In this document: in pieces, positions 5,951-37,728 of the stretch | Layout: the number at the start of each line of letters is the position of its first letter | Numbering within the stretch: the stretch's first letter is position 1 | Source: an uncultured Pseudomonadota bacterium | GTDB taxonomy: Bacteria > Pseudomonadota > Alphaproteobacteria > RUG11792 | Direction of reading: 5' to 3' | NCBI GenBank assembly: GCA_902773285.1 | Contig: CACYDS010000009.1 | Span: forward strand, 1 to 37,996 | DNA length: 37,996 nt | Position numbers and translations under genes: made by a program | Notes under the pieces: model-generated | What the model was told of the DNA's origin: nothing | Seen by the model: the letters and a program-made list of their open reading frames with translations, nothing else | Database searches by the model: none

Positions 5951-6613
5951 ATGGCGAATTTGGGAGCAACGAGTTTGAGACATTACATGTCCGGCATTGA
6001 CGGTACAATTCCCGGAATTGGTGGATGTCCTTTTGATATGGATAAGTTGCAAAACGACTATGTCAATGGAGCGATAACCCCAAACAGAATAATTCACTTT
6101 ACAGGGGATGAGCTAAAGACAGACGTCAAAATGTCGCTTTCACCATTGAACGACTATGGCAATAAGGATCATGAAGTTCTTGATGTTATCGCTTGTTCTG
6201 GCTTTTACGAAACGTCGACTCTTAGTTTTAGAATACCAAATCTGCATAAGCCTGGTGCTGCTCGAGCCTCAGATGTTTGGGTTGTTATTCCGCAGAATAT
6301 CATTGTGCCGCAGTTAGTGAAAAAACTGCATCAGGGGGCTATTGATGGTATATACATCGCTACTTTATCATTCCTAAATGCTGGTGATGAAGATAAGCCG
6401 CAAGTCACTCAGGTGCATGACTATACAAGCTGTTTTATAAAATTTGTAGATTCGTTGAGCTATGGAGCCCTAGCAGTATTTGCATTTTCATTTGTCAGAT
6501 TAAAGATAACACAGCATGACTATAAGCAAATAAGTGAAAAAGGAGCTAATGGAGCGGGCGGACAATATGTCTACGAATTTGATTATAACGCAGCTCTTGG
6601 AAAAAAAGGGTAA
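5951..6613 (+). CDS. hcp: Divergent Hcp-like (type VI secretion tube) protein with an extra ~50-aa N-proximal insertion
   Basis: By eye it aligns to Hcp1-type sequences as I remember them. EVLDVIACSGF matches EEIDVLAWSWG. SDVWVVIPQNIIVPQLVKKLHQGAIDGIYIATLSFLNAG matches the DKSTPxL...G...L.IRKAG segment. The C-terminal FSFVRLKITQHDYKQISEKGANGAGGQYVYEFDYN matches LNFAQVQVDYQPQKADG...YGWN. An alternative start is the ATG at 5987 (MSGIDG). Confidence 0.6.
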   Translation: MANLGATSLRHYMSGIDGTIPGIGGCPFDMDKLQNDYVNGAITPNRIIHFTGDELKTDVKMSLSPLNDYGNKDHEVLDVIACSGFYETSTLSFRIPNLHKPGAARASDVWVVIPQNIIVPQLVKKLHQGAIDGIYIATLSFLNAGDEDKPQVTQVHDYTSCFIKFVDSLSYGALAVFAFSFVRLKITQHDYKQISEKGANGAGGQYVYEFDYNAALGKKG

Positions 6614-7673: not shown

Positions 7674-10600
7674 ATGTCACGTACGTATCGATTACTGATT
7701 ATAATTTTATTGGGAATGTTACCAATATATCAGGCAGATGCTGGGGATAGTACGGATACAGAAGAAGTGGCTGGGAATTCATCAGAGGAATCGGAAGAGC
7801 CTGTCGAGCCTCAATTGTATGATTTTCATGATATTCTAACTCTAGAAGAAGGGTCGCAGGTGATTTTTGGCACCGGATTGTTTCGGAGTACGTCCGGACT
7901 TGTTAACTATACCAATAAGGTACAATTGCGTCCCAATTCAACATTGACGTTACGAGCTGGCGATGGAGAAAACACCGGAGTGTTCCACAATTATGGAAGA
8001 TGTGAGATGTATAAAAATTCCAAAATAACTGGCGGAGGAACGATTTTTGAACATGGACGGTTTGAAGATGACAATGCAAACAATGTCCGAGCATCTCAAA
8101 ATAAAGCTGATTATGAGCGAGGATACATAATTGACTACTACGATACTCAACAAGACCTCACGACAGATCAAGAAATTCAGAATGCCGCTTATTACGATTT
8201 AGTGAATAATGAAGATGCGCCTATACGAAAATTTAAGATTTATTACATGGGGTGTGGCATATTCACCACTTCTAAAGAACTCGGAGATCCTAGTATTCAG
8301 GCAACTGATTTTGCTGAAATTACTGATTCAATGAGGGGAACAGACAACCAGGGAAAAATAGATTCAAGTATCATCTTTAAAAGGGATGCCCTTGATTTCA
8401 ATCAAACAGCCGGCTCCATTGATACAGCTTACGATTTGAGAACGCTGTCAAATGACTATGGTTCGTTGGGAACGATACACATTTCTGACCAAACAGATGA
8501 TATTAAATCATCGTTCTTTTCAATACGTGGATTTGATACTGAAGACGCCGGGCATGACTGCTCAGGGACAGACGGCTCCACATATTTTAAATTTGGACGA
8601 AATTTAGACAGAGATGTTTGGGTTCCAAAGGTTGATGATAAGGTTGTGCTAGGAAAAACAATGCCAGACACAGAAAATGCCGCCGCATATGAGCAGGACA
8701 TTATGGATACGCTGAACACAAGTGCCGAAAACAATGACAATCTCTTTGCGTATAAGGATTGGGAGCCAAATGATCCAGTGACAACTTATCACGGAGACAA
8801 TTCGTGGTTTAATGGTGTTTATAAGTTGAAACGCGGAGCCATTATCGTAAAAAATACAGCAGGAATGTTTGGTGGACGAGTTGAGCTCGGAGATGCGGAT
8901 GTATACGAGAGCCCTACGGGAGCTGGCACTGGAACTTTGGCATTACATAGAGATTTAGTTGCAGGTAACGAAGATGCAAAAAATTTCATAAAAAATGTGA
9001 GGCCTACTGAATTTGAGTGGGAAGGTGGCGCGAAAGATGAATACAACAAGCCTGACATCTATATGAACGGTAACTCTACACTTTTCTTCAATTTGCAACC
9101 AGACCAAAACGGAAATCAGATATTTTCATTCTATGGAAACATAACTGGCACTGAACGAGATAGGCTGATATTTGAACAAGGAGAAGTCAGAATTAAGGGA
9201 GATTGCTCTGGCTTTAAAGGTAGCATTGCAGTGACTCCAGGGGCTAAGTTTGAAGTGAGAAGTAGCGATGCCGGAAGTAGTAGTACATACCAGGGAAAGT
9301 TTCCGAATGCGAATATATACCAAGTTTATGGCGCAGATGCTGGAGAAAATGCAGGAAAGTTTGTGACAAATCCGACAGCGGTAACGTCAGTAGATACTGC
9401 TACTATGGAGAATGTCACGATAAATAACGGTATCATGGAGCTGAACAATGCCGGCAGTGAAGATGGCGGGAAGATTACCTTAAAGAGCGCAAATATTGAA
9501 AGCACGGCGATGACGACATTGAACGATGAATCTAATATTAAAGATACAGTGATAAGAGGGGTGCTCGTTGCAAAAGGCGATATGACTGTCGAGAATACGA
9601 CTTTGGAAGGAGGTGTGCTCGTTCTAGACAATGCAACTTTGACAACAGATAACATGACGGCAGGATCTACGATTGCAAGTTGGGGAAATGGGAACTACAG
9701 GGATGTAGTAAATATTGGAGCTAACGTTGGTGCAGGAGCAGGGTATTTCCGCATTACTCAGCAGCATACTTTGAAGTTGTTTTCGGACTACAACGTTACT
9801 ACTGGCGAAGCTGATTACATAAATGTTGCTAACTCGGTTGCTAATATACAAACAGCTGGTGGTATAGCCGTCGCTGGTATGAACTTCAATGAAATGCCGA
9901 CAAATGACCAATATGTATTTAAGATATATGATGGTGCCGGTCACACAGATAATATGCCTGTTACCATCGGTGGCTCATACAATGGTGGCGATCCTGTATT
10001 TGATGTATATGTCAATGGGACTTTTAATCCGACTAATACCAATCCCATAAATGGTATAAACGCCGGTGGAATTGATAATGTAGGAGATACCAAATTAGAC
10101 TATAACGTTACAAATAATGCACAGAAAGTTACGACATACTTAGATAACGGCGTGCGCATTCTGGAATTCGGCAATGGAAACATATATAAAGTCGAAGGCC
10201 AGTCCGCTGGGCGATATGGAAATGTTGTTCTTACGAAATATCTTACCGATAGATCCGTTGTTGCGGACGTTGTCCAAAGTGGCGCCATTAGCTCTATTGC
10301 GCTAAACATTGGAGATACAATATCTGATGCAGATGACATTTTAAACTCATCGATTTTCTCAAATAGTGAAGCTGCCTTGTTAGATTCTGAGGTAAAAACG
10401 CGAGGAACTTCTGGCGGCACTTCATCCACAAACGAAGAATCCCAAACAGAGAAGCATCATAGAAATGATGCATTACCGCTTTCAGAGAAAAAAACTAAAA
10501 AATATAGGATTTGGAACAAAACTTTTGGAGAGCATGACGCAATTGACTTGCGAGGAAGTAGCAATATGAGCATGAATGAAGCAGGAACAATTCTAGGATT

Positions 10601-11294
10601 TGACAGCGAAGATATGAAATTCAATTCGTTTGGGTATGATACGATGCTGAGGCCTACAATTTTCCTGGGACTTCAACACAATAATCTTAGGTATAAAGGC
10701 GATAAATATGGCATCAATGGTTATTTTGGCGGCGCCAAAGCATCACTGTATGCCAAAAATCAGGTTCTTGAAGTGTTTGGGCTATATGAACAATTCAACA
10801 CCAGAGCTACGTTGCCAGCGAATTACTCAGGTTCATATCAAAAAATTAAGGCTAAGACCCATATATTGAATTTGGGGGCAAAATATGCCATAGACGTTAA
10901 ATTACACCAAAACCTATATATTCGTCCTAATGTATCCTTGGGCTATGCATTTATGTGGTCTCCTGCATTTACTGGATATAACGAAGCTAGTCATAAATTG
11001 CGCAATCGCCATATGATTTCTGTGGCGCCTGGCGTTAGCCTTATTCGAAGGCAGGGAGATTGGCTCATTCGAGGATTTGTAGCATATCATCGCAAATTCG
11101 GCACGAAAGGGCGAACGAAAGCGACAGGAGTGTCTATGAAAACAGATCTGACCAAAAAGAGATTCTTAGAATATGGAGCGGAAGTCACAAAAGATAATAT
11201 AGCTAACAACACAAGCGCGAGCCTAAAACTATCAAGGAAAACCTTTGGTATCCGCGGATTTAAGGCAACGATATCTGTCGGCATAAAGTTCTAA
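7674..11294 (+). CDS. Large autotransporter outer-membrane/surface protein (type Va)
   Basis: A GGAGG RBS lies 7 nt upstream. There is a Sec signal peptide (MSRTYRLLIIILLGMLPIYQADA|GD), a ~900-aa Asn/Gly/Thr-rich passenger, and a ~280-aa C-terminal beta-barrel-like domain with alternating hydrophobic strands ending in a terminal Phe (ISVGIKF). Confidence 0.85.
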   Translation: MSRTYRLLIIILLGMLPIYQADAGDSTDTEEVAGNSSEESEEPVEPQLYDFHDILTLEEGSQVIFGTGLFRSTSGLVNYTNKVQLRPNSTLTLRAGDGENTGVFHNYGRCEMYKNSKITGGGTIFEHGRFEDDNANNVRASQNKADYERGYIIDYYDTQQDLTTDQEIQNAAYYDLVNNEDAPIRKFKIYYMGCGIFTTSKELGDPSIQATDFAEITDSMRGTDNQGKIDSSIIFKRDALDFNQTAGSIDTAYDLRTLSNDYGSLGTIHISDQTDDIKSSFFSIRGFDTEDAGHDCSGTDGSTYFKFGRNLDRDVWVPKVDDKVVLGKTMPDTENAAAYEQDIMDTLNTSAENNDNLFAYKDWEPNDPVTTYHGDNSWFNGVYKLKRGAIIVKNTAGMFGGRVELGDADVYESPTGAGTGTLALHRDLVAGNEDAKNFIKNVRPTEFEWEGGAKDEYNKPDIYMNGNSTLFFNLQPDQNGNQIFSFYGNITGTERDRLIFEQGEVRIKGDCSGFKGSIAVTPGAKFEVRSSDAGSSSTYQGKFPNANIYQVYGADAGENAGKFVTNPTAVTSVDTATMENVTINNGIMELNNAGSEDGGKITLKSANIESTAMTTLNDESNIKDTVIRGVLVAKGDMTVENTTLEGGVLVLDNATLTTDNMTAGSTIASWGNGNYRDVVNIGANVGAGAGYFRITQQHTLKLFSDYNVTTGEADYINVANSVANIQTAGGIAVAGMNFNEMPTNDQYVFKIYDGAGHTDNMPVTIGGSYNGGDPVFDVYVNGTFNPTNTNPINGINAGGIDNVGDTKLDYNVTNNAQKVTTYLDNGVRILEFGNGNIYKVEGQSAGRYGNVVLTKYLTDRSVVADVVQSGAISSIALNIGDTISDADDILNSSIFSNSEAALLDSEVKTRGTSGGTSSTNEESQTEKHHRNDALPLSEKKTKKYRIWNKTFGEHDAIDLRGSSNMSMNEAGTILGFDSEDMKFNSFGYDTMLRPTIFLGLQHNNLRYKGDKYGINGYFGGAKASLYAKNQVLEVFGLYEQFNTRATLPANYSGSYQKIKAKTHILNLGAKYAIDVKLHQNLYIRPNVSLGYAFMWSPAFTGYNEASHKLRNRHMISVAPGVSLIRRQGDWLIRGFVAYHRKFGTKGRTKATGVSMKTDLTKKRFLEYGAEVTKDNIANNTSASLKLSRKTFGIRGFKATISVGIKF

Positions 11295-11329: not shown

Positions 11330-11989
11330 TTATTTCATCAAATAATCCATTAACTCATGAAAATTTTGAGGAGTTAACTTTGCGGGTTGTTCCGTTGAAA
11401 TTTTACGCAACACTTCAGGTATAGAGAGCTTTTGTTCGTGCAATTTTATTGCATTGTATAAAGCATATATGTGGTTAGACAAATCTGTATATTCTCTATG
11501 TTGAAACTCTTCTTTTATTAATTCATCTGAACAATTTGCATATTGTTCGCTTACCTCATCATAATCATACAATCGTAACACCTCCAGCGATTGCAGCGAT
11601 TGTCGCATATCTGTTACATTTTGCTTCTTCACCAACAAATCCGCCAAACAAGTTGAAACTAATATTCTGTATATTTCCCAAAGTCTCAATGCCTTGCTGT
11701 AATCAAATATCGTTTCAATATACAGCGAAAAAAGCTCAGGATTTGAATTTCCGGTCCTTGTTTTTGTCTTTACCATCCAAGCATGTTCTATCATATGGGC
11801 AATTTCATGTATTAGGAAAACCTCAGCATCTGTAGTCGACATGTACGTTAATTTTAAGCAGTAGTTATCAGTGATTTTCTCCGGATCCATAAATCTCAAT
11901 TGGATTTTTTTAAGCCACTCTTCATATTTTTGTTGATCTTGAGGATCATCAAACTTATATTTTTCCTTTTCTGCATCAGCTTCAGTCAT
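11330..11989 (-). CDS. Hypothetical protein with an HExxH metallopeptidase-like motif
   Basis: 219-aa ORF with an ATG start. Its only recognisable motif is FLIHEIAHMIEHAW (HExxH followed by E-H). There is no signal peptide or TM segment. Confidence 0.55.
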   Translation of the reverse strand: MTEADAEKEKYKFDDPQDQQKYEEWLKKIQLRFMDPEKITDNYCLKLTYMSTTDAEVFLIHEIAHMIEHAWMVKTKTRTGNSNPELFSLYIETIFDYSKALRLWEIYRILVSTCLADLLVKKQNVTDMRQSLQSLEVLRLYDYDEVSEQYANCSDELIKEEFQHREYTDLSNHIYALYNAIKLHEQKLSIPEVLRKISTEQPAKLTPQNFHELMDYLMK

Positions 11990-12198: not shown

Positions 12199-12555
12199 TT
12201 AATGCGTTTCAAACCAACATATAGCATCATATCCATTGTCATACTCAGGTTGCTGTTCTCTGGCTAGTTTCTCATAATAACTTGCTTTCTCTGCTTCATT
12301 CAGTTCTTCAGAATGCTCTGGATCTAGATATACAACACCAGAGCTCCCCGGCTTGATTATCCGCAAATACGGCGGGACGTCCTCAAGCCCATACGAAATG
12401 ACGTCTACACACGATCCTGAATCAACTGTCCATTCAGCATATGTAAATTCCGTCTTAGCAATTGCTCTTTCAACAACTCCTATCAGATACTCTCCAATCT
12501 CTCCACTATCTTGGAGCAATTTTTTATAAAAGTCTTTAGCCCTATTTTTTACCAA
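12199..12555 (-). CDS. Hypothetical protein, possibly the 3' remnant of a decayed longer gene
   Basis: 118 codons open with no ATG anywhere, so the ORF-track start is a TTG. The same frame continues upstream through three stops to an ATG at 12810. Confidence 0.35.
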   Translation of the reverse strand: MVKNRAKDFYKKLLQDSGEIGEYLIGVVERAIAKTEFTYAEWTVDSGSCVDVISYGLEDVPPYLRIIKPGSSGVVYLDPEHSEELNEAEKASYYEKLAREQQPEYDNGYDAICWFETH

Positions 12556-12952: not shown

Positions 12953-13029
12953 GGGTCTTTAGTTCAGTTGGTTAGAACCCTCCGCTCATAACGGAGTTGT
13001 CGTAGGTTCGAGTCCTACAGGACCCACCA
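12953..13029 (+). tRNA. tRNA with CAU anticodon (elongator Met or lysidine-dependent Ile2; not distinguishable by eye)
   Basis: The cloverleaf was folded by hand. Acceptor GGGTCTT/AGGACCC, D stem GTTC/GAAC, anticodon stem CTCCG/CGGAG with loop CTCATAA, T stem GTAGG/CCTAC. CCA is encoded. Confidence 0.9.
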
Positions 13030-13045: not shown

Positions 13046-13636
13046 TTATAAAGTGAGTGCGGTTTTTATGCTCGTAGGAATGGGCTCGTTTGATACTGCT
13101 GTCAGGTCCGTTAGCGTGGCTAAGACTTTACATCTTGAAAAATGCTCTATTGTATCAATTAGCGTCGTGTTGCCGTTCAAGATGATACCTAAGATATCAA
13201 TGTTCCGTGCTCTTAAAACCCCGATGGTCAAGAATATATGATTTAAAAATCCTAATTTAGATTTCGCCACTATTAATGCCTTTGCATTCAGAAAATTGAT
13301 TAAATCAGCCATCATTATGTTTTTGGTAATTGGCACGAGAGCGCCGCCGGCCCCTTCAATCACTGTATTATTTGGGGGGCATTGTCTCTTTATGGTATCT
13401 ACATCAATATCTATTCCTTCAAGATGTGCCGCATCATATACCGATAGTGGCGCCTTCAGTCTATATGCGTTAGGAATAATATGTGTTGTCGGAGAAAACT
13501 GAATGATTGTATTAGCATCCGAATCATCACCGGTCTGTATCGGCTTAAAATAGGAAGCCGCAGTATTTTTGCAGATCCATGCAGAAGTTATTGTTTTTCC
13601 GATATCTGTATCAGTCCCTGTGACGAATATATTCAT
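13046..13636 (-). CDS. bioD: ATP-dependent dethiobiotin synthetase
   Basis: MNIFVTGTDTDIGKTITSAWI is a P-loop-type BioD N-terminus. EGAGG is also present, and the 196-aa length is typical. Confidence 0.88.
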   Translation of the reverse strand: MNIFVTGTDTDIGKTITSAWICKNTAASYFKPIQTGDDSDANTIIQFSPTTHIIPNAYRLKAPLSVYDAAHLEGIDIDVDTIKRQCPPNNTVIEGAGGALVPITKNIMMADLINFLNAKALIVAKSKLGFLNHIFLTIGVLRARNIDILGIILNGNTTLIDTIEHFSRCKVLATLTDLTAVSNEPIPTSIKTALTL

Positions 13637-13689: not shown

Positions 13690-14025
13690 TTATTTGCTAA
13701 TACAACAAGGCATAACAAAAAACGCTATAAGAGAATCACGCGTGGCAGTAGCTGGATCTAATTGTCCAGATTTTATCGAAAGTTCATTATTAATCACGCG
13801 TTGAAATATCTCTTGTTGTAATTTCGCACCTAGCCCACCATTTATCAACCTTTTTTCCAGGATTTTATGTATAAGCATTGCGTTTGCGGAAGCTTCGGTT
13901 TCATTTAATCCATCGTTTAGAGTGATAGAAGGGAAATTTTTAGACACAGCCATTGATGGCTTCTTTTCTTTCTCGGGCAAAGTATCATGAAGCTGTCCGA
14001 AAATATCATTTTGCATAATCTTCAT
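13690..14025 (-). CDS. Hypothetical 111-aa protein, translationally coupled to tssG
   Basis: The ATG lies 2 nt after the tssG TAG. No TM segment, signal peptide or recognisable motif was found. Confidence 0.5.
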   Translation of the reverse strand: MKIMQNDIFGQLHDTLPEKEKKPSMAVSKNFPSITLNDGLNETEASANAMLIHKILEKRLINGGLGAKLQQEIFQRVINNELSIKSGQLDPATATRDSLIAFFVMPCCISK

Positions 14026-14027
14026 AA

Positions 14028-14999
14028 CTAAACACTCTCTGTAAAAAATGCACTTTTGGAACTGTGCATCCCGAATATAAATGTATTCTTATTTAAACTA
14101 TTATCTCCATTAAGCAATGTTTCCTTCACTAGGCATTTATCCAAAAAGAAATGGAGCTTGACAGCAACACCATGTGGAACGTAAAGGCATATGATTTCCT
14201 TCATTTTTTGAAGAGCAGAAAACGTTTGATCTTTTGAATATTTTTTGGGCAGAAACTTTGCATACTGCTCAAAATCCAAAGCCCCAATTAAAACCGTTAT
14301 ACCTTTCGTCGCATCCCAAATTTTATCTCCCAATAGACAGGTTTTCCCCAATTTATTATGCCTCCCTTTTTTTCCAATAGACATCCGCTCTCCGAGAGGA
14401 GCTTGTATAAAACCGCCCTCAAATTGGCGAATTTCTATTGGCACTTTAAAAAAGCTTTCTAGAATAGCTTTCAAACCAGCACTAGATCTCGTGCGACGCC
14501 AAAACAAATTTTGAACAGAAACCTTAAATTGTTCCGGGATCATCCCGGCTTTTGACTTCATATTTAATTCTAATCCAGATAAGCTAAAAATTATGTTTCC
14601 TATGACAGAATTTTCAATCGGGCTTGACAGGGTTTCAATATTTTGACGTTTCAAAAACGCATATCTTAGCGAAAGTATTTTGCTATTGTATATATCAAAA
14701 TAATCGTACAACGCACCGCGTGTTGTACGCTCATAACTTAAAAACTCTTCTGTATAACTGTCTGGTATTGGACTTTCAATTCCAACAATACCATTCATAT
14801 TCACATGTATCTCCGCAAGGCCATCTTTTATGCCCTCAACCTTTGAGACGTCTATGTACTTCGATGTATAATTCACGTTTGATTTGATGTCGACAAACTT
14901 AATTTCGCATCTTTTTAGCGCAACATCTAACGCCTTCACAAATGAGAACTTTTCAGCCTCATATATAAATCTTTCTAAAAGTGAATCAGCCTTTGCCAC
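14028..14999 (-). CDS. tssG: Type VI secretion baseplate subunit TssG (ImpH/VasB family)
   Basis: 323 aa with a GTG start. FSFVKALDV matches the F.Ff.avrlLe start. The segment VNMNGIVGIESPIPDSYTEEFLSYERTTRGALYDYFDIYNSKILSLRYAFLKR matches the GL.G..GpLP..yTe...r.r..d.al..FlDiFnhR...LfYrAW core. RRTRSSAGLKAILESFFKVPIEIRQFEGGF...LGDKIWDATKGITVLIGALDFEQYAKFLP matches the C-terminal TssG pattern. Confidence 0.8.
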   Translation of the reverse strand: MAKADSLLERFIYEAEKFSFVKALDVALKRCEIKFVDIKSNVNYTSKYIDVSKVEGIKDGLAEIHVNMNGIVGIESPIPDSYTEEFLSYERTTRGALYDYFDIYNSKILSLRYAFLKRQNIETLSSPIENSVIGNIIFSLSGLELNMKSKAGMIPEQFKVSVQNLFWRRTRSSAGLKAILESFFKVPIEIRQFEGGFIQAPLGERMSIGKKGRHNKLGKTCLLGDKIWDATKGITVLIGALDFEQYAKFLPKKYSKDQTFSALQKMKEIICLYVPHGVAVKLHFFLDKCLVKETLLNGDNSLNKNTFIFGMHSSKSAFFTESV

Positions 15000-15031: not shown

Positions 15032-15108
<77 letters not shown>

Positions 15109-15126: not shown

Positions 15127-15155
15127 ATTATATATCGTTCAATTGCTAGGCACAA
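15127..15155 (-). promoter_or_regulatory. Candidate promoter of tRNA-fMet
   Basis: On the minus strand: TTGTGC (15155-15150), a 17-nt spacer, then TATAAT (15132-15127). This is 18 nt upstream of the mature tRNA 5' end. Confidence 0.45.
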
Positions 15156-15206
15156 CAAAATTTATAATTTTTTTCAGATGCAAATTAATATTAACACCAT
15201 TACACT

Positions 15207-15252
15207 ATTCCCCCTGGATGCACCATAACAAAGTGCATCGGGGGAATTTTTT
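15207..15252 (+). terminator. Strong intrinsic-terminator-like hairpin with a T-run on the plus strand only
   Basis: attccccc(tg)gatgcac - cataacaaa - gtgcatc gggggaat, followed by TTTTT. That is 8 + 7 bp of stem with a 2-nt bulge. It lies 33 nt downstream of the minus-strand dsbA-like stop, but the U-tract is on the plus strand. Confidence 0.55.
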
Positions 15253-15284
15253 GCTCAAAACTCAATTAACTCAGAGTAATTTTT

Positions 15285-16079
15285 TTACTTTATAACTGAT
15301 TCTATAGCTGGAAGCAACTGTTCGGCAGAGGAAAGACGCAACATTGTTGCCTTACCATCCTTTAATGTAAATATTGCAGGCACTAACGGCAATTTCATGC
15401 TCTCGGCCAATCTGCCATTTTCTGCCAACTTTTTATCGCAATCATCCATCATACCTTCTATTTCCTTATTATCCAAACCGGCTGCTTTCAACGACGATTC
15501 GATGAATTTCTTGTCTATATCTCCCTTGCTTGAAGTCACATGCTCAATAAACTTTATGGCCTTTTCTGCACTTTTCTCGTATACGGCCAAATAGACCTTT
15601 GCAAGAGTTACAGAATCGTTGCCCAAAACCGCGACAGGAAGCACCTTAAAGCACAGATCCTTCTTTGCCTTCACTAAGTTCAACATTTGTTTTTGTATCT
15701 CGACGCAGGCTTTCTCCAATGGATCGATGAAACAAATCACTGATGCCTTGGATTCAAGCTTCCCAAACTTCATAGCTAATTTAGTAATATCTGCACTTTT
15801 ATCGGATACAGTCTGTTCAATTTTTTTCAATTCATCCTCGCGCTGTTTTGCTATTCCCTCTCCCATAGCATTCATAACAAGTTGAGGATTTTGTTTTACT
15901 GTATCAACTATTATACCTCGGACTTTTTCATCAAAAGTTGCGCTTTCAGCCACTGATGATGGCTTCTTGGGGCAAAAATATGCGGCAGACGCCACTATTA
16001 ATGCCAAAATAGACACGATTATAGAAGCTTTACAACCGCATCCAGAACATTTTTGTTTGTTTTCCATAAATTTTTCCAA
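15285..16079 (-). CDS. DsbA-family (COG1651-like) thioredoxin-fold protein with a degenerate active site (ExxC instead of CxxC)
   Basis: The layout is an N-terminal anchor, a helical linker (VKQNPQLVMNAM, compare YL..NPE), then a thioredoxin fold. ICFIDPLEKAC sits where VEFFDYNCGYC is expected. LVPAIF sits where the cis-Pro GTPAFV motif is expected. Confidence 0.6.
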   Translation of the reverse strand: MEKFMENKQKCSGCGCKASIIVSILALIVASAAYFCPKKPSSVAESATFDEKVRGIIVDTVKQNPQLVMNAMGEGIAKQREDELKKIEQTVSDKSADITKLAMKFGKLESKASVICFIDPLEKACVEIQKQMLNLVKAKKDLCFKVLPVAVLGNDSVTLAKVYLAVYEKSAEKAIKFIEHVTSSKGDIDKKFIESSLKAAGLDNKEIEGMMDDCDKKLAENGRLAESMKLPLVPAIFTLKDGKATMLRLSSAEQLLPAIESVIK

Positions 16080-18469: not shown

Positions 18470-18799
18470 AGATATTCCTCGGAAAAAACGTTACAACCAT
18501 TGTTTTCAATAGTCTATTATACCCCGCGCTGAAAATGCAAAATGTTTTCTGAGCAAAAACGTATAACTCATTGGAGTAATTTTGCATATTTTCTGCCAAT
18601 GACATGATCATATTTAGGATTCCACCTAAAATCTATATTTTTAGAAATATCTGTTAAAAAGTTGTTAAGGAGGCTAGGCTAAAAATTAGCTAATACCAGT
18701 TACCACACAGCTCAGCAATTCCTATTTATAGATTTGACTAGATAAGCATTGTGGGGTAAACTGAGAACTGGGGCAAAAGATTGTTTTGAGGGAGATGCG

Positions 18800-20455
18800 A
18801 TGAAGTTTGGTATTTTAAAAGGGCTTTTGATAATTACATTGGGGAATATTTTAGCGCTCAGCTCATTTGCTAGTAGCAACAATGTTCACGTCTTTTCAAA
18901 GAAGGATAATCCTATAAATGCCAAGCGTGAGCTTGCAAAAATTTGGATATCCATCAGATTTAACAATCACATACAAAATTTAACGAACAAAAACTGTTGG
19001 GTTTTTGAGGGTAAGTATAAATCTAGTATCGACAACATTCTAACTGAGATAAGTAATTCAATGCTTGATATATGCCCGTATGCAAAATCGGCTAAATACA
19101 GTGATGGTAGCAAGATTGCTGAATTTTTCAAAGAGGAAGGTTTCAATCCAATATCAGCATACCAAGGAGCGAACTGGAATTATGTCGTATTGATGAATTT
19201 GCTGCAAAATATGAGAAACAGAGATATCGAGAGCATAAAATACGAGTGGCAGAAGATTCACATTTTAGATGAAGTAGTTATGGACATACGGAATGCAAAC
19301 ATAAGACAAGCCAGTCAATATGACTATGATCGGAAGCATTACATAGAGAGTTTAAATCATGCGGCAAACGATATACTGCAGTATTTTGATAGCTTAGATT
19401 TGTGGAGATTTGTTCTGCGAATAAAACAAAAATTTTATAAACCGACCAGTCCAGTTCAAAAAAATACGTCCGTCCCCTCCCCCATGCAAATAACAAGAGA
19501 TCAAATGCCTCATGGGATAAAAAATGAAGGAGGCACTTGCTATCTAAATGCGGTACTACAGTGTTTATATAACAGTGCTCCAATAAGAACCGCCATACAA
19601 AAATTAAGTCAATCACCGCAGAACAAATTGGCACAACAGATAAATAACATATTCCTTCAACTTGCGACAAATGGGACGAATGAACTGGATTTCAATGGAG
19701 CGGTCTCAAGCATAGCTAGGCACATAGGAATGGATCGCATAAGCAATAAACAGCCTTCCATCGGCAATCAAGACCCAGCAGAGGCTATAGGAAACATCCT
19801 AGATACGCTAATAGATGAAGAAATAGCGCCGCAGCTAAGTCGTATAAACCAAAAATACAGCAAGCAATCAGATGCCTCTAAAAAAGGACAATTATCACAA
19901 AATCTTCGCCACCATAGCACAATCGGCCAAATTTGTGACATTAAATGTAGTGATATCATAACTTGTAATAAATGCGATAATCGCAGTACGAATGATACCC
20001 GGCTAACCAAACTGGATCTCGCCCTACTAAAGGCACACAGCAAAGAAATTTTGCTGCACGATTTAATCAGATCGTTCGAAGCCGAGGAAATCTTGAATGA
20101 TACAAACAAATGTTGGTGTCCGAACTGTAAGCGAAACGAGCCGGCATCGAAGCGCATAGTGCTTAACACGTTGCCTAAGGTTTTGTGCTTAAGCTTAAAA
20201 AGATATGAGGTTAAAGACAAAAAAACGTCTTTCAGAGGCGATACAATATCATTTCCCGATGTAATAAAAATAAGACAATATAAATACAAACTTCGCTCAT
20301 TCGTCTATGGCGGATATATAAAGGGTGGACATATCATAATGGAAGGCTATGCGGATGATGCAACTCCATATACTGCTAACGATGGACAAGTATTAATCAA
20401 AGGCGAATTATCACCCTCAAAAGCTCAAATGTTATTTTATGAGCGGATGGAATAG
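18800..20455 (+). CDS. Secreted USP/UCH-type (peptidase C19-like) cysteine protease, putative deubiquitinase, with an unknown N-terminal module
   Basis: The likely start is the ATG at 18800, after GAGGGA; the ORF track starts at an upstream alternative codon at 18749. The signal peptide is MKFGILKGLLIITLGNILALSSFA|SS. The Cys box is GIKNEGGTCYLNAVLQCLYNS, with the Cys codon at 19538-19540. Zinc-ribbon fingers CNKCDN...CPNCKR and LPKVLCLSLKRYE are present. The His box is YKLRSFVYGGYIKGGHIIMEGY...YTANDGQV. Confidence 0.8.
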   Translation: MKFGILKGLLIITLGNILALSSFASSNNVHVFSKKDNPINAKRELAKIWISIRFNNHIQNLTNKNCWVFEGKYKSSIDNILTEISNSMLDICPYAKSAKYSDGSKIAEFFKEEGFNPISAYQGANWNYVVLMNLLQNMRNRDIESIKYEWQKIHILDEVVMDIRNANIRQASQYDYDRKHYIESLNHAANDILQYFDSLDLWRFVLRIKQKFYKPTSPVQKNTSVPSPMQITRDQMPHGIKNEGGTCYLNAVLQCLYNSAPIRTAIQKLSQSPQNKLAQQINNIFLQLATNGTNELDFNGAVSSIARHIGMDRISNKQPSIGNQDPAEAIGNILDTLIDEEIAPQLSRINQKYSKQSDASKKGQLSQNLRHHSTIGQICDIKCSDIITCNKCDNRSTNDTRLTKLDLALLKAHSKEILLHDLIRSFEAEEILNDTNKCWCPNCKRNEPASKRIVLNTLPKVLCLSLKRYEVKDKKTSFRGDTISFPDVIKIRQYKYKLRSFVYGGYIKGGHIIMEGYADDATPYTANDGQVLIKGELSPSKAQMLFYERME

Positions 20456-36660: not shown

Positions 36661-37728
36661 CTACCTAATATACGTCACATAACACCAGCTCGTGTCGTAT
36701 GCATAACGAAATTTTAAACCAGAAAAAAGCGCTTCTACCGGATTGCTAATTCGTTCGGCAACAAGCATCCATCTCACTTTTTCTTCTTCGCTTGTTTTGT
36801 TGTAACAACTTACAGAGTCGCTCTGAATTTGACACAATCGGTAGCCATCTCCACAAATATTAAATTCATAATCATAGATATTATGTGCCATATGTTCCTC
36901 TTTTATTCTTATCCAATCATATTTGGTAATATCAGATCCGATTGCTTTCATGGATATACTGTACACGACTTTTCTACTCTTCAGCTTCAATAAAGGAGCT
37001 TTTGTCCCAGAAATTTTAGGTTCAAAATCGATGCGAACGAACCCAACAGGCATCCATGCATAATATGCCGGATTTTTCGCCTGCTCTTGTATCAGGGCAT
37101 CTATGGATTTTCCTTTCGTTTCTTCGTAACACCGATAAAATCTGGTCATTTCATCAGATAAAGACAGCGCTTTATCATAGGCTTTTATATTGCTAATAGC
37201 ATTTGTTACTTTTCTTGTAATATAATATACTCCTTCTGCAAGATAATGGGCACAAATTCTAGATTTTACTGTATTAAAAATTTTGTTCTTTTTGTCTTCA
37301 AATATTTCGTACCCGTCGCCTACTTCGCCATTTAAGTAACTATGCTTAAGTACATGCAGATAGTTGTACAGTACAACAGCATTCCAGTGCTTTTGTTTAT
37401 AGTCTCTTGCATTAGCATTAAATGTTATAACATCTCCTGCATTTTTCCTCGCAAACTCGTTCTTGTCTGTAACACAATCCGCAACTGCCTGTGCTATTAC
37501 TTTTATTATTGATTCGTTATATTTTGTTTGTGTTATCCAATTGTTATTATTATCCGCATCGGCAATTTTATGGTTTGCAAGAATTCGCCAACTTATATTG
37601 TTAAACAGATTTATTATTTCAGACAGGTCGTCACATCCAGCTCGGGCACAACAGCAAAATAATGATACTATTAAATATAACTTGCAAAACTTCCTTATCT
37701 CATTTTTTACTAAAACTGTAATTTTCAT
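36661..37728 (-). CDS. Hypothetical secreted protein sharing an N-terminal module with the USP-like protein
   Basis: 355 aa. There is a signal-peptide-like N-terminus (KLYLIVSLFCCCARA|GC). NNNNWITQTKYNESI...DC...KHWNAVVLYNYL parallels NKNCWVFEGKYKSSI...DIC...ANWNYVVLMNLL in the 18800-20455 product. The C-terminal half was not recognised. Confidence 0.6.
   Translation of the reverse strand: MKITVLVKNEIRKFCKLYLIVSLFCCCARAGCDDLSEIINLFNNISWRILANHKIADADNNNNWITQTKYNESIIKVIAQAVADCVTDKNEFARKNAGDVITFNANARDYKQKHWNAVVLYNYLHVLKHSYLNGEVGDGYEIFEDKKNKIFNTVKSRICAHYLAEGVYYITRKVTNAISNIKAYDKALSLSDEMTRFYRCYEETKGKSIDALIQEQAKNPAYYAWMPVGFVRIDFEPKISGTKAPLLKLKSRKVVYSISMKAIGSDITKYDWIRIKEEHMAHNIYDYEFNICGDGYRLCQIQSDSVSCYNKTSEEEKVRWMLVAERISNPVEALFSGLKFRYAYDTSWCYVTYIR

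What the first reader, a model, noticed from the sequence alone, without database searches (positions are those of the whole stretch)
13690..14999. Orphan TssG baseplate gene translationally coupled to an unknown 111-aa ORF
The 323-aa product follows the TssG (ImpH/VasB) pattern along its whole length (see the feature evidence). In known T6SS clusters tssG follows tssE-tssF. Here the upstream neighbour is an initiator tRNA gene. The only co-oriented partner is a 111-aa ORF whose ATG lies 2 nt after the tssG stop, followed by bioD. The small ORF has no recognisable motif. It could be an undescribed baseplate accessory or adaptor, or a lineage-specific replacement for a missing core part.
Basis: partly seen in the sequence, partly recalled or inferred. 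Interest (0 to 1): 0.65.

Follow-up and report, generated by a model that had tools for sequence, protein, structure and literature searches.

The report
Initiator-tRNA-led tssG operon with new partner
A real type VI secretion baseplate gene (tssG) sits alone among housekeeping genes of a Holosporales-like gut endosymbiont. Together with the initiator tRNA gene in front of it and a previously undescribed 111-residue protein behind it, it forms a three-gene unit kept intact in about 17 related genomes, although what the small protein does is still unproven.

Summary
On the minus strand, tssG (14028-14999; Pfam PF06996, E=1.5e-40) is followed 2 nt after its stop codon by a 111-aa ORF (13690-14025), then by bioD. 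An initiator tRNA gene lies 32 nt upstream.

- **ORF111 is a real gene.** dN/dS is 0.076. It defines a family of 63 clusters (at 50% identity), found only in Holosporales or unclassified Alphaproteobacteria MAGs from rumen, termite gut and mouse gut. It has no sequence or fold match to anything known, including TssE and TssF.
- **The conserved unit has three parts.** tRNA-fMet, tssG and ORF111 stay together in 17 non-redundant loci. Their flanks differ almost everywhere, and sigma-70-like promoters sit in front of the tRNA.
- **"Orphan" is misleading.** Holosporales are reported to scatter their T6SS genes. The window also carries a solitary, sequence-cryptic Hcp-fold gene (5951-6613), found here by structure prediction.
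- **ORF111's role is inferred only.** Conserved translational coupling points to a TssG partner, either structural or a chaperone. Against this, distant homologues and two related MAGs have it unlinked from tssG, and one MAG carries a 52-nt deletion that truncates it.

Verdict: a new variant of a known system, of moderate interest.

The parts
15207..15247 (-). Strong hairpin just after the stop of the upstream 264-aa DsbA-like gene. It is the likely 3' boundary of the upstream transcription unit.
   Evidence: RNA fold of 15185-15290(-): a 16-bp stem, MFE -29.5 kcal/mol, z-score -3.86, with 0 of 200 shuffles folding as well. No clear U-tract follows, so its role as a terminator is inferred.
15127..15155 (-). 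Promoter-like element in front of the tRNA: TTGTGC, 17 nt, TATAAT. The -10 box ends 18 nt before the tRNA 5' end.
   Evidence: Read by eye. It does not pass the scan tool's threshold of 4 of 6 matches at the -35 box. At the same position in relatives there are clear TTGACA/TTGACG, 17 nt, TAnnnT promoters (L001, L006, L009, L016, L017, L024, L028, L029, L041, L043).
15032..15108 (-). Initiator tRNA-fMet gene (anticodon CAT), the first gene of the conserved unit.
   Evidence: ARAGORN and Rfam tRNA at 63.1 bits. 90.9% identity over 77 nt to the E. coli metZWV genes. C1xA72 mismatch and A11:U24 are visible in the sequence. A tRNA-Met(CAT) lies on the same strand, about 15-30 nt upstream of the first possible tssG start codon, in every relative with upstream sequence available except L042 and L022/L047.
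14028..14999 (-). tssG, the T6SS baseplate wedge subunit (323 aa, GTG start 32 nt after the tRNA).
   Evidence: PF06996 E=1.5e-40. TIGR03347 at 134.8 bits. hhalign probability 98.3% against a canonical TssG. 342 plasmid records with TssG-like matches at 22-27% identity. dN/dS 0.098 against L005. The tRNA-tssG spacer has no significant structure and no promoter or terminator call.
13690..14025 (-). ORF111, a 111-aa (12.3 kDa, pI 7.8) protein of a new family, translationally coupled to tssG.
   Evidence: 20 close homologues. 63 representative clusters by exhaustive HMM search. dN/dS 0.076. Invariant motifs: QxDIFG at the N-terminus, AMLIHRxLQKK, and NExxIKxGxxDxxTATRDSL. AF2 model with pLDDT 79.6: an N-terminal beta-hairpin, a disordered K/E-rich linker and a C-terminal helical bundle. 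No Pfam, NCBIfam, PDB-sequence or Foldseek match. The 3' end of tssG encodes a conserved GAGG/AAGG Shine-Dalgarno-like sequence.
13046..13636 (-). bioD (dethiobiotin synthase), 53 nt downstream and co-oriented. It is a neighbour only in this genome and in RUG14374, and is not part of the conserved unit.
   Evidence: TIGR00347 E=4e-33. No terminator call between ORF111 and bioD on the minus strand. The downstream gene differs in other relatives.
5951..6613 (+). A solitary, sequence-cryptic gene with an Hcp (TssD) fold. It is a second dispersed T6SS structural gene in the window, 7.4 kb from tssG.
   Evidence: No Pfam or PDB-sequence hit. The AF2 model (pLDDT 75.8, pTM 0.75) gave 52 Foldseek PDB hits at E<=1e-3. 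48 of the 50 listed are Hcp structures, and the other two (4ksr, 7o42) are chimeras that contain Hcp1. The best is 4w64_A at E=3.8e-8, with TM-score up to 0.81. 86% identical to a gene 4 kb from the tssG unit in L001. It is solitary in L051 and L052 too.

Best explanation
The locus is a small operon led by a tRNA gene: promoter, initiator tRNA-fMet, tssG, ORF111. It belongs to a Holosporales-affiliated endosymbiont whose type VI secretion genes are dispersed singly around the chromosome.

**Shown**
- tssG is a full-length TssG under purifying selection.
- ORF111 is a real, strongly conserved protein of a previously undescribed family restricted to this group.
- The three genes stay adjacent and co-oriented through many genome rearrangements.
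- Promoters lie upstream of the tRNA. None is evident between the tRNA and tssG.
- The ORF111 start overlaps the tssG stop or closely follows it, and a Shine-Dalgarno-like sequence is encoded in the last tssG codons.

**Inferred**
- One transcript is made from the tRNA promoter. RNase P and 3' processing release the tRNA and leave a tssG-ORF111 mRNA, as in the E. coli metY-rimP-nusA-infB and tRNA-tufB operons.
- ORF111 is translated by ribosomes that terminate on tssG, so the two proteins are made in roughly equal amounts.
- ORF111 binds TssG as a lineage-specific baseplate-wedge accessory or assembly chaperone. Its invariant N-terminal beta-hairpin would dock by strand addition, and its helical bundle would form the body.
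For: - **TssG identity:**
- **Selection:** dN/dS is 0.098 for tssG and 0.076 for ORF111, comparing the window with RUG14374.
- **Size and restriction of the family:** (all 18 genome hits are Holosporales or unclassified Alphaproteobacteria MAGs).
- **Conservation of the unit:** tssG followed by ORF111 on the same strand in 17 non-redundant loci. tRNA-Met(CAT) lies directly upstream wherever sequence is available. There are at least 11 different upstream and at least 11 different downstream neighbours.
- **Retention when unlinked:** in two MAGs where the genes lie on different contigs (Hm464_bin42, Nc350_bin147), both genes are still intact.
- **Coupling:** junctions of -4 to +11 nt with GAGG/AAGG in the tssG 3' end.
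- **Operon boundaries:** a hairpin after the upstream gene, an unstructured tRNA-tssG spacer, and TTGACA-17-TAnnnT promoters upstream of the tRNA in relatives.
- **Initiator identity of the tRNA:**
- **Dispersed T6SS:** PMC8163844 and PMC11909080, and the Hcp-fold gene in the window.
Against: - No direct evidence of co-transcription or of a TssG-ORF111 contact.
- Conserved adjacency does not prove shared function. The tRNA itself is conserved next to tssG without any obvious functional link.
- More distant family members sit next to gpmI, lolE-like or ftsQ genes with no tssG nearby (L010, L011, L048, L049).
- The pair is split in Hm464_bin42 and Nc350_bin147, ORF111 is not adjacent to tssG in Pcl387_bin130, and the two genes are divergently oriented in Iy174_bin24.
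- RUG11420 carries a 52-nt deletion that removes the tssG stop and the first 13 ORF111 codons. ORF111 may therefore be dispensable, or that contig may be faulty.
- No family member was seen under a named Holosporales genus known to have a T6SS. Names were available for only about 10 of the clusters.
- The presence of tssB/C/E/F/K/L/M/vgrG in this genome could not be checked.
Confidence: 0.5

Rival explanations
1. ORF111 is a small housekeeping or regulatory protein with no role in the T6SS. It simply shares the strong tRNA promoter and tssG's translation, and the linkage persists because neither tssG nor ORF111 has a promoter of its own.
For: - Distant homologues lie beside gpmI, lolE-like or ftsQ genes without tssG.
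- Where ORF111 is unlinked from tssG, it sits next to ordinary genes such as an aroK-like, SIS-domain or ABC ATPase gene.
- The tRNA-tssG linkage shows that functionally unrelated genes can stay adjacent in this clade.
Against: - The coupling to tssG, with overlapping or near-overlapping stop and start and a conserved Shine-Dalgarno-like sequence inside tssG, is kept down to about 45% TssG identity and across at least 11 different contexts.
- The family is confined to a group in which a T6SS is reported to be nearly universal.
- No recognisable regulatory, nucleic-acid-binding or enzymatic domain was found.
Confidence: 0.25
2. ORF111 is a small T6SS substrate: a 12-kDa cargo carried in the Hcp lumen or on the spike and delivered into the protist host.
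For: - Its size is in the range of known Hcp-lumen cargo (background knowledge on Hcp-dependent effectors).
- It is encoded in a T6SS gene unit.
- An Hcp-fold protein exists in the same genome.
- It has no signal peptide, and its N-terminal motif is invariant.
Against: - Very strong purifying selection and a single copy, unlike typical fast-evolving effectors.
- Equimolar coupling to a subunit present at only 6 copies per baseplate is an odd way to express a secreted cargo.
- It is never next to hcp or vgrG in the held loci.
- No toxin-like fold.
Confidence: 0.12
3. tssG-ORF111 is a remnant: a decaying leftover of a lost T6SS cluster, or a small island integrated at the 3' end of the tRNA gene. 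On this view ORF111 is a chance or decaying ORF.
For: - tssG lacks its canonical tssE/tssF neighbours.
- It sits at the 3' side of a tRNA gene, a classic integration site.
- TIGR03347 scores just below its equivalog cutoff.
Against: - dN/dS is about 0.08-0.10 for both genes.
- Both are intact in more than 20 genomes.
- No integrase, no att-like repeat of the tRNA 3' end, and no GC anomaly.
- A conserved Hcp-fold gene is present too.
Confidence: 0.03

Closest known systems
Dispersed T6SS of Holosporales (Ca. Bodocaedibacter, Paracaedibacteraceae, Caedimonadaceae; PMC8163844, PMC11909080, bioRxiv 10.1101/719211)
   Same: Alphaproteobacterial endosymbionts of protists with small AT-rich genomes. 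Their T6SS core genes are split over several loci among housekeeping genes. Hcp and TssJ are hard to detect by sequence.
   Different: The published arrangement keeps tssG with tssF ([tssG-tssF]) and hcp with tssBC. Here tssG is followed by ORF111 and not by tssF, with no tssF within 6-10 kb in about 25 relatives. hcp is a singleton. The initiator tRNA leads the unit. Neither the ORF111 family nor the tRNA linkage appears in the T6SS passages retrieved from those papers.
Canonical T6SS-i baseplate operon tssE-tssF-tssG (example: Pseudoroseomonas cervicalis plasmid pL11-A, L050)
   Same: The TssG protein is homologous over its full length (hhalign probability 98.3%).
   Different: tssE and tssF are absent from the locus. 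The downstream partner is a new 111-aa protein unrelated to TssE or TssF. The identity of TssG to canonical TssG is only 22-27%.
Mixed tRNA-mRNA operons of E. coli: metY-rimP-nusA-infB and thrU-tyrU-glyT-thrT-tufB (background knowledge)
   Same: A tRNA gene (in metY, also an initiator tRNA) is the promoter-proximal gene, and protein-coding genes follow with no promoter or terminator in between. The tRNA is cut out of the common transcript.
   Different: In E. coli the downstream genes encode translation or transcription factors. Here they encode a secretion-system baseplate subunit and an unknown protein. Co-transcription is inferred here and not demonstrated.
Small T6SS accessory and adaptor proteins (TssE/gp25, PAAR, Eag/Tec/Tap chaperones, TagJ)
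   Same: Small proteins encoded next to core T6SS genes that bind a core component.
   Different: ORF111 has no sequence or fold similarity to any of them. Its predicted hairpin-linker-helical-bundle architecture matched nothing in PDB or BFVD at E<0.8.

Membership tests
TssG (T6SS baseplate subunit; PF06996 / TIGR03347) | Profile match above the curated Pfam threshold over the whole domain | tested here: met
   139.8 bits against a cutoff of 24.6, E=1.5e-40, profile positions 35-296 of 304.
TssG (T6SS baseplate subunit; PF06996 / TIGR03347) | NCBIfam equivalog cutoff for TIGR03347 | tested here: not met
   134.8 bits against a cutoff of 143.3. It is a divergent member. The match still covers positions 34-297 of 300 at E=3.3e-39.
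TssG (T6SS baseplate subunit; PF06996 / TIGR03347) | Full-length homology to a TssG encoded in a canonical tssE-tssF-tssG cluster | tested here: met
   hhalign probability 98.3% over 288 columns against Pseudoroseomonas TssG. tblastn hits to annotated tssG in 342 plasmid records.
TssG (T6SS baseplate subunit; PF06996 / TIGR03347) | Encoded next to tssF (and tssE) | tested here: not met
   No TssE, TssF, TssC or TagJ match in the window or in any of about 50 related loci (phmmer --max). Pfam annotation of the neighbours agrees.
TssG (T6SS baseplate subunit; PF06996 / TIGR03347) | Other T6SS core genes present in the same genome | tested here: inconclusive
   An Hcp-fold gene lies in the window. 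The rest of the genome is not available. The literature says a T6SS is present in nearly all Holosporineae.
TssG (T6SS baseplate subunit; PF06996 / TIGR03347) | Assembles with TssF2 and TssK trimers into the baseplate wedge | not testable with these tools
   Needs complex prediction or biochemistry.
TssE / gp25-like (as the identity of ORF111) | Sequence or profile similarity to TssE, or a gp25 fold | tested here: not met
   No PF04965 hit at E<=10. hhalign probability 0.1% against TssE. No TssE or gp25 structure among the Foldseek PDB hits.
TssF N-terminal fragment (as the identity of ORF111, since tssF follows tssG in other Holosporales) | Similarity to TssF | tested here: not met
   hhalign probability 0.4% against a canonical TssF. 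No TssF chain among the Foldseek hits. Caveat: the template was a single sequence.
TssJ / PAAR (as the identity of ORF111) | A lipoprotein signal with a beta-sandwich (TssJ), or an all-beta PAAR cone | tested here: not met
   The N-terminus MKIMQNDIFGQ has no signal peptide or lipobox. The model is mainly helical. No Pfam hit.
tRNA-led mixed operon (metY-nusA-infB type) | A co-oriented tRNA gene directly upstream of the CDS, the promoter upstream of the tRNA, and no promoter or terminator in between | tested here: met
   A 32-nt unstructured spacer. Promoters lie upstream of the tRNA in relatives. The arrangement is conserved in every relative with upstream sequence except L042 and L022/L047.
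tRNA-led mixed operon (metY-nusA-infB type) | A single primary transcript processed into tRNA and mRNA | not testable with these tools
   Needs RNA data.
Hcp / TssD (for the 220-aa protein at 5951-6613) | Hcp beta-barrel fold | tested here: met
   52 Foldseek PDB hits at E<=1e-3. 48 of the 50 listed are Hcp structures and the other two are Hcp1-containing chimeras. The best is E=3.8e-8, with TM-score (target-normalised) up to 0.81. The model has pLDDT 75.8 and pTM 0.75.
Hcp / TssD (for the 220-aa protein at 5951-6613) | Match to the Pfam T6SS_HCP profile | tested here: not met
   No Pfam hit for any of the 20 family members at E<=1.

The most novel reading that the evidence does not exclude
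ORF111 is a new structural subunit of a remodelled Holosporales T6SS baseplate. It binds TssG and takes over the job of a canonical part that is lost or undetectable in this clade, for example the TssE-like sheath-initiation or wedge-clamp role. Placing tssG-ORF111 behind the initiator tRNA promoter ties baseplate synthesis to growth-rate (stringent) control of the translation machinery.
Probability: 0.15. Interest if true: 0.7.

Novelty: new variant of a known kind. Interest (0 to 1): 0.5.

Why it matters
The T6SS is considered the main candidate device for host interaction in Holosporales endosymbionts. It has been described as non-standard, lacking the Hcp tube and TssJ.

This locus shows three things for a gut-protist-associated clade found in rumen, termite gut and mouse gut:
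1. The baseplate gene tssG travels with a conserved, previously undescribed small protein. That protein is a concrete candidate for a lineage-specific T6SS component and can be tested by co-expression or complex modelling.
2. Expression of this pair is apparently wired to the initiator-tRNA promoter, an unusual regulatory arrangement for a secretion system.
3. At least one "missing" core part, Hcp, is present but invisible to sequence profiles. Claims of tubeless T6SSs in these symbionts therefore deserve a structure-based re-check.

The organisms are uncultured and the small protein's function is still unknown, which limits the immediate impact.

Tried and rejected
- **Exact look-up of the window's TssG:** not on record.
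- **ORF111 against known families:** nothing usable from Pfam, NCBIfam, PDB sequences, Foldseek PDB or Foldseek BFVD. The best fold hits were generic helical bundles at E of about 1.
- **ORF111 as TssE or as a split-off TssF N-terminus:** rejected by hhalign and by the lack of fold hits.
- **Opposite-strand 340-352-aa proteins next to distant ORF111 homologues (L010, L011) as divergent TssG:** rejected by BLASTP.
- **ORF111 remnant downstream of tssG in L006:** none found by tblastn.
- **The search for related loci with ORF111 alignments A2 and A3:** failed because no stretch was conserved enough. Replaced by a hand-made degenerate DNA pattern.
- **Island-at-tRNA hypothesis:** no att-like repeats and no composition anomaly.
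- **Promoter scan in the window:** it did not flag the site upstream of the tRNA, and hit counts were no higher than in shuffles. The promoter argument rests mainly on the relatives.
- **Second tRNA-CAT gene near the unit:** not conserved between lineages.
- **Search for the origin of the complete genome CP165730.1 in the literature:** nothing found.
- **Locating tssB/C/F/K in the same MAGs:** not possible.
Full report
**1. Observation**

The window is AT-rich (about 39% GC) and consists almost entirely of housekeeping genes: gyrA, lptF/G, fabI, dapD, ffh, rseP, bamA, tgt, rplI, rplY, pth, fabD, fabG, trxB and prfA.

On the minus strand, the ORF listing gives a 323-aa ORF at 14028-14999 (GTG start), a 111-aa ORF at 13690-14025 (ATG) and a 196-aa ORF at 13046-13636. 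The junction reads GTT TAG TT ATG, so the 2-nt spacing is exact.

The 323-aa protein matches Pfam T6SS_TssG at E=1.5e-40 over nearly the whole model. It matches TIGR03347 at 134.8 bits, slightly below that equivalog cutoff. A profile of its clade aligns end to end with a TssG taken from a canonical tssC-tagJ-tssE-tssF-tssG cluster (probability 98.3%).

The 196-aa protein is BioD.

ARAGORN and Rfam place a tRNA-Met(CAT) at 15032-15108 on the minus strand, 32 nt upstream of tssG. It is 90.9% identical over all 77 nt to the E. coli metZWV initiator genes. It carries the 1:72 mismatch and A11:U24.

**2. ORF111 is a real gene of an undescribed family**

A word-indexed search found 20 homologues at 44-99% identity. 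An exhaustive profile search of 1.84 billion representative proteins found 63 clusters, nearly all 95-125 aa long.

Between the window and its closest genome (rumen MAG RUG14374, L005), dS is about 0.9 and dN 0.068. This gives dN/dS of 0.076, as low as for tssG at 0.098.

The alignment shows nearly invariant motifs:
- M-x-I-x-Q-x-D-I-F-G at the N-terminus.
- AMLIHRxLQKK in the middle.
- NExxIKxGxxDxxTATRDSLxxFF at the C-terminus.

AlphaFold2 (pLDDT 79.6) predicts an N-terminal beta-hairpin, a disordered K/E-rich linker and a confident C-terminal helical bundle.

Nothing known matches it:
- No Pfam or NCBIfam family for the window protein, and no consistent Pfam family for any of 40 members.
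- No PDB sequence.
- No Foldseek hit better than E of about 1 in PDB or BFVD.
- hhalign against TssE and TssF is null.

Every source name recovered is "hypothetical protein" from a "Holosporales bacterium" or "Alphaproteobacteria bacterium" MAG. A degenerate DNA pattern for the C-terminal motif hit only 18 places in 185,579 species genomes. All 18 were in such MAGs from termite gut, rumen or mouse gut.

**3. The conserved unit is tRNA-fMet, tssG, ORF111**

I pooled the loci found through ORF111 and through TssG and scanned them with HMMs and ARAGORN.

- **The pair.** tssG is followed directly by ORF111 on the same strand in 17 non-redundant loci, with TssG identity to the window falling to about 45%.
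- **The tRNA.** A tRNA-Met(CAT) of the initiator type lies on the same strand, about 15-30 nt upstream of the first possible tssG start codon. This holds in every case with upstream sequence available, except L042 and the rearranged L022/L047.
- **The flanks.** The genes flanking the unit differ almost everywhere. There are at least 11 unrelated upstream and at least 11 unrelated downstream neighbours. Only the closest pairs of genomes share flanks (examples).
- **The junction.** The tssG/ORF111 junction is always tight, from a 4-nt overlap to an 11-nt spacer. The last tssG codons (E-[ERK]-V) encode a GAGG/AAGG Shine-Dalgarno-like sequence.
- **The promoter.** Upstream of the tRNA, most relatives show a textbook TTGACA/TTGACG, 17 nt, TAnnnT promoter. 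The window has TTGTGC-17-TATAAT, which is below the scan tool's threshold.
- **Boundaries in the window.** A strong hairpin closes the upstream gene (z=-3.86). The tRNA-tssG spacer is unstructured.
- **Not an island.** There are no att-like repeats and no composition anomaly that would suggest an integrated island.

The simplest reading is a single transcription unit led by the initiator tRNA. This is analogous to E. coli metY-rimP-nusA-infB (background knowledge). ORF111 would be translated by coupling to tssG.

**4. Why tssG is alone**

Published work on Holosporales reports the following:
- A T6SS is conserved in almost all members (PMC11909080).
- Hcp and TssJ are apparently missing (bioRxiv 10.1101/719211; PMC11909080).

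The clade seen here goes further. No TssE, TssF, TssC or TagJ is detectable within 6-10 kb of tssG in any locus.

The window also contains another lone T6SS gene. The 220-aa product of 5951-6613, between fabI and dapD, has no sequence-level hit. Its AF2 model (pLDDT 75.8, pTM 0.75) gave 52 Foldseek PDB hits at E<=1e-3. Of the 50 listed, 48 are Hcp structures and the other two are chimeras that contain Hcp1. The best hit is E=3.8e-8, with TM-score up to 0.81. This gene is 86% identical in the L001 lineage, more conserved than tssG at 63%. It is solitary there and in L051 and L052 as well.

"Orphan" therefore describes the gene order, not the biology. tssG looks like one piece of a fully dispersed T6SS gene set. 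I could not verify the remaining core genes in this genome.

**5. What ORF111 does**

This part is inference.

For a TssG partner, structural accessory or assembly chaperone:
- Translational coupling is conserved across deep divergence and many rearrangements.
- Both genes are retained even when they have been separated (Hm464_bin42 and Nc350_bin147).
- Selection is as strong as on tssG.
- The family is restricted to a group where the T6SS is the presumed key host-interaction device.

Against:
- The tRNA shows that adjacency in this clade can reflect shared transcription and not shared function.
- Distant homologues are unlinked from tssG.
- One MAG (RUG11420) has a 52-nt deletion that removes the tssG stop and the first 13 codons of ORF111.

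Rival readings are a hitch-hiking small protein unrelated to the T6SS (0.25), a small secreted cargo (0.12), and a relic or island (0.03). I put the partner model at about 0.5. The underlying facts, that the genes are real, that they form a conserved unit and that the tRNA leads it, are much firmer (above 0.85).

**6. Comparison and novelty**

TssG is a divergent but genuine family member. ORF111 fails every membership test tried (TssE, TssF fragment, TssJ, PAAR) and is best treated as a new family.

The arrangement is a new variant of the already unusual Holosporales T6SS organisation, combined with a tRNA-led operon of the metY type.

Interest is moderate. It offers a testable candidate for a lineage-specific baseplate component and an odd regulatory coupling. 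As a by-product, it gives evidence that the "missing" Hcp of these symbionts is present but cryptic. The organisms are uncultured and the function remains open.

Noticed in passing
window 5951-6613 (+): A 220-aa protein with no Pfam, NCBIfam or PDB-sequence hit. Its AF2 model gave 52 Foldseek PDB hits at E<=1e-3. 48 of the 50 listed are Hcp (TssD) structures and the other two are Hcp1-containing chimeras (best E=3.8e-8). It is a solitary gene between fabI and dapD, 86% conserved in L001, and solitary in L051 and L052. This may be the Hcp reported as missing from Holosporales T6SSs.
   Followed up: yes
L004 9968 (= RUG11420, also L027/L032) compared with L001 9989-10040: A 52-nt deletion removes the last two tssG codons, the stop, the spacer and the first 13 codons of ORF111. 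TssG gains an out-of-frame tail and ORF111 loses its start and its invariant N-terminal motif. The flanking sequence is 100% identical. This is either a natural loss or an assembly artefact.
   Followed up: partly
window 18749-20455 (+): A 568-aa protein with a eukaryote-type ubiquitin C-terminal hydrolase domain (PF00443, E=1.1e-21). It is a candidate deubiquitinase effector, consistent with an intracellular lifestyle in a eukaryotic host.
   Followed up: no
window 7674-11294 (+): A 1206-aa protein with no Pfam hit. It has a signal-peptide-like N-terminus and a C-terminus ending in ...GIKF. By eye it looks like an autotransporter or large surface protein. Not tested.
   Followed up: no
window 12953-13029 (+); L009 2485-2561: A second tRNA gene with a CAT anticodon lies just beyond bioD, convergent with the unit. 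It has a paired 1:72 position, so it is not an initiator. Whether it is elongator Met or Ile2 was not resolved. L009 has a different tRNA-Met directly after ORF111, so this second tRNA is not conserved.
   Followed up: partly
L022/L047 (Iy174_bin24) 267-1666; L040 2756-3031: In one termite-gut MAG, tssG and ORF111 are adjacent but divergently oriented, with no tRNA-Met on the contig. In another (Gx481_bin186), a second weaker ORF111-like ORF (E=1.2e-9) lies about 0.9 kb downstream of the first, a possible paralogue.
   Followed up: no
window 15285-16079 (-), 11330-11989 (-), 12199-12555 (-), 36661-37728 (-): Four further ORFs have no confident family. The 264-aa ORF has weak DsbA/DsbG-like hits (E about 3e-4, below cutoff) and is 91% conserved in RUG14374. 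The ORFs of 219, 118 and 355 aa have no hits and no homologues in the other held loci.
   Followed up: partly
L010 9932-10474 and L049 8001-8360: Distant ORF111-family members in two unrelated contigs are each followed directly by gpmI (iPGM). One contig is the complete 1.33-Mb genome CP165730.1. This is a second recurrent neighbourhood for the family, without tssG.
   Followed up: partly
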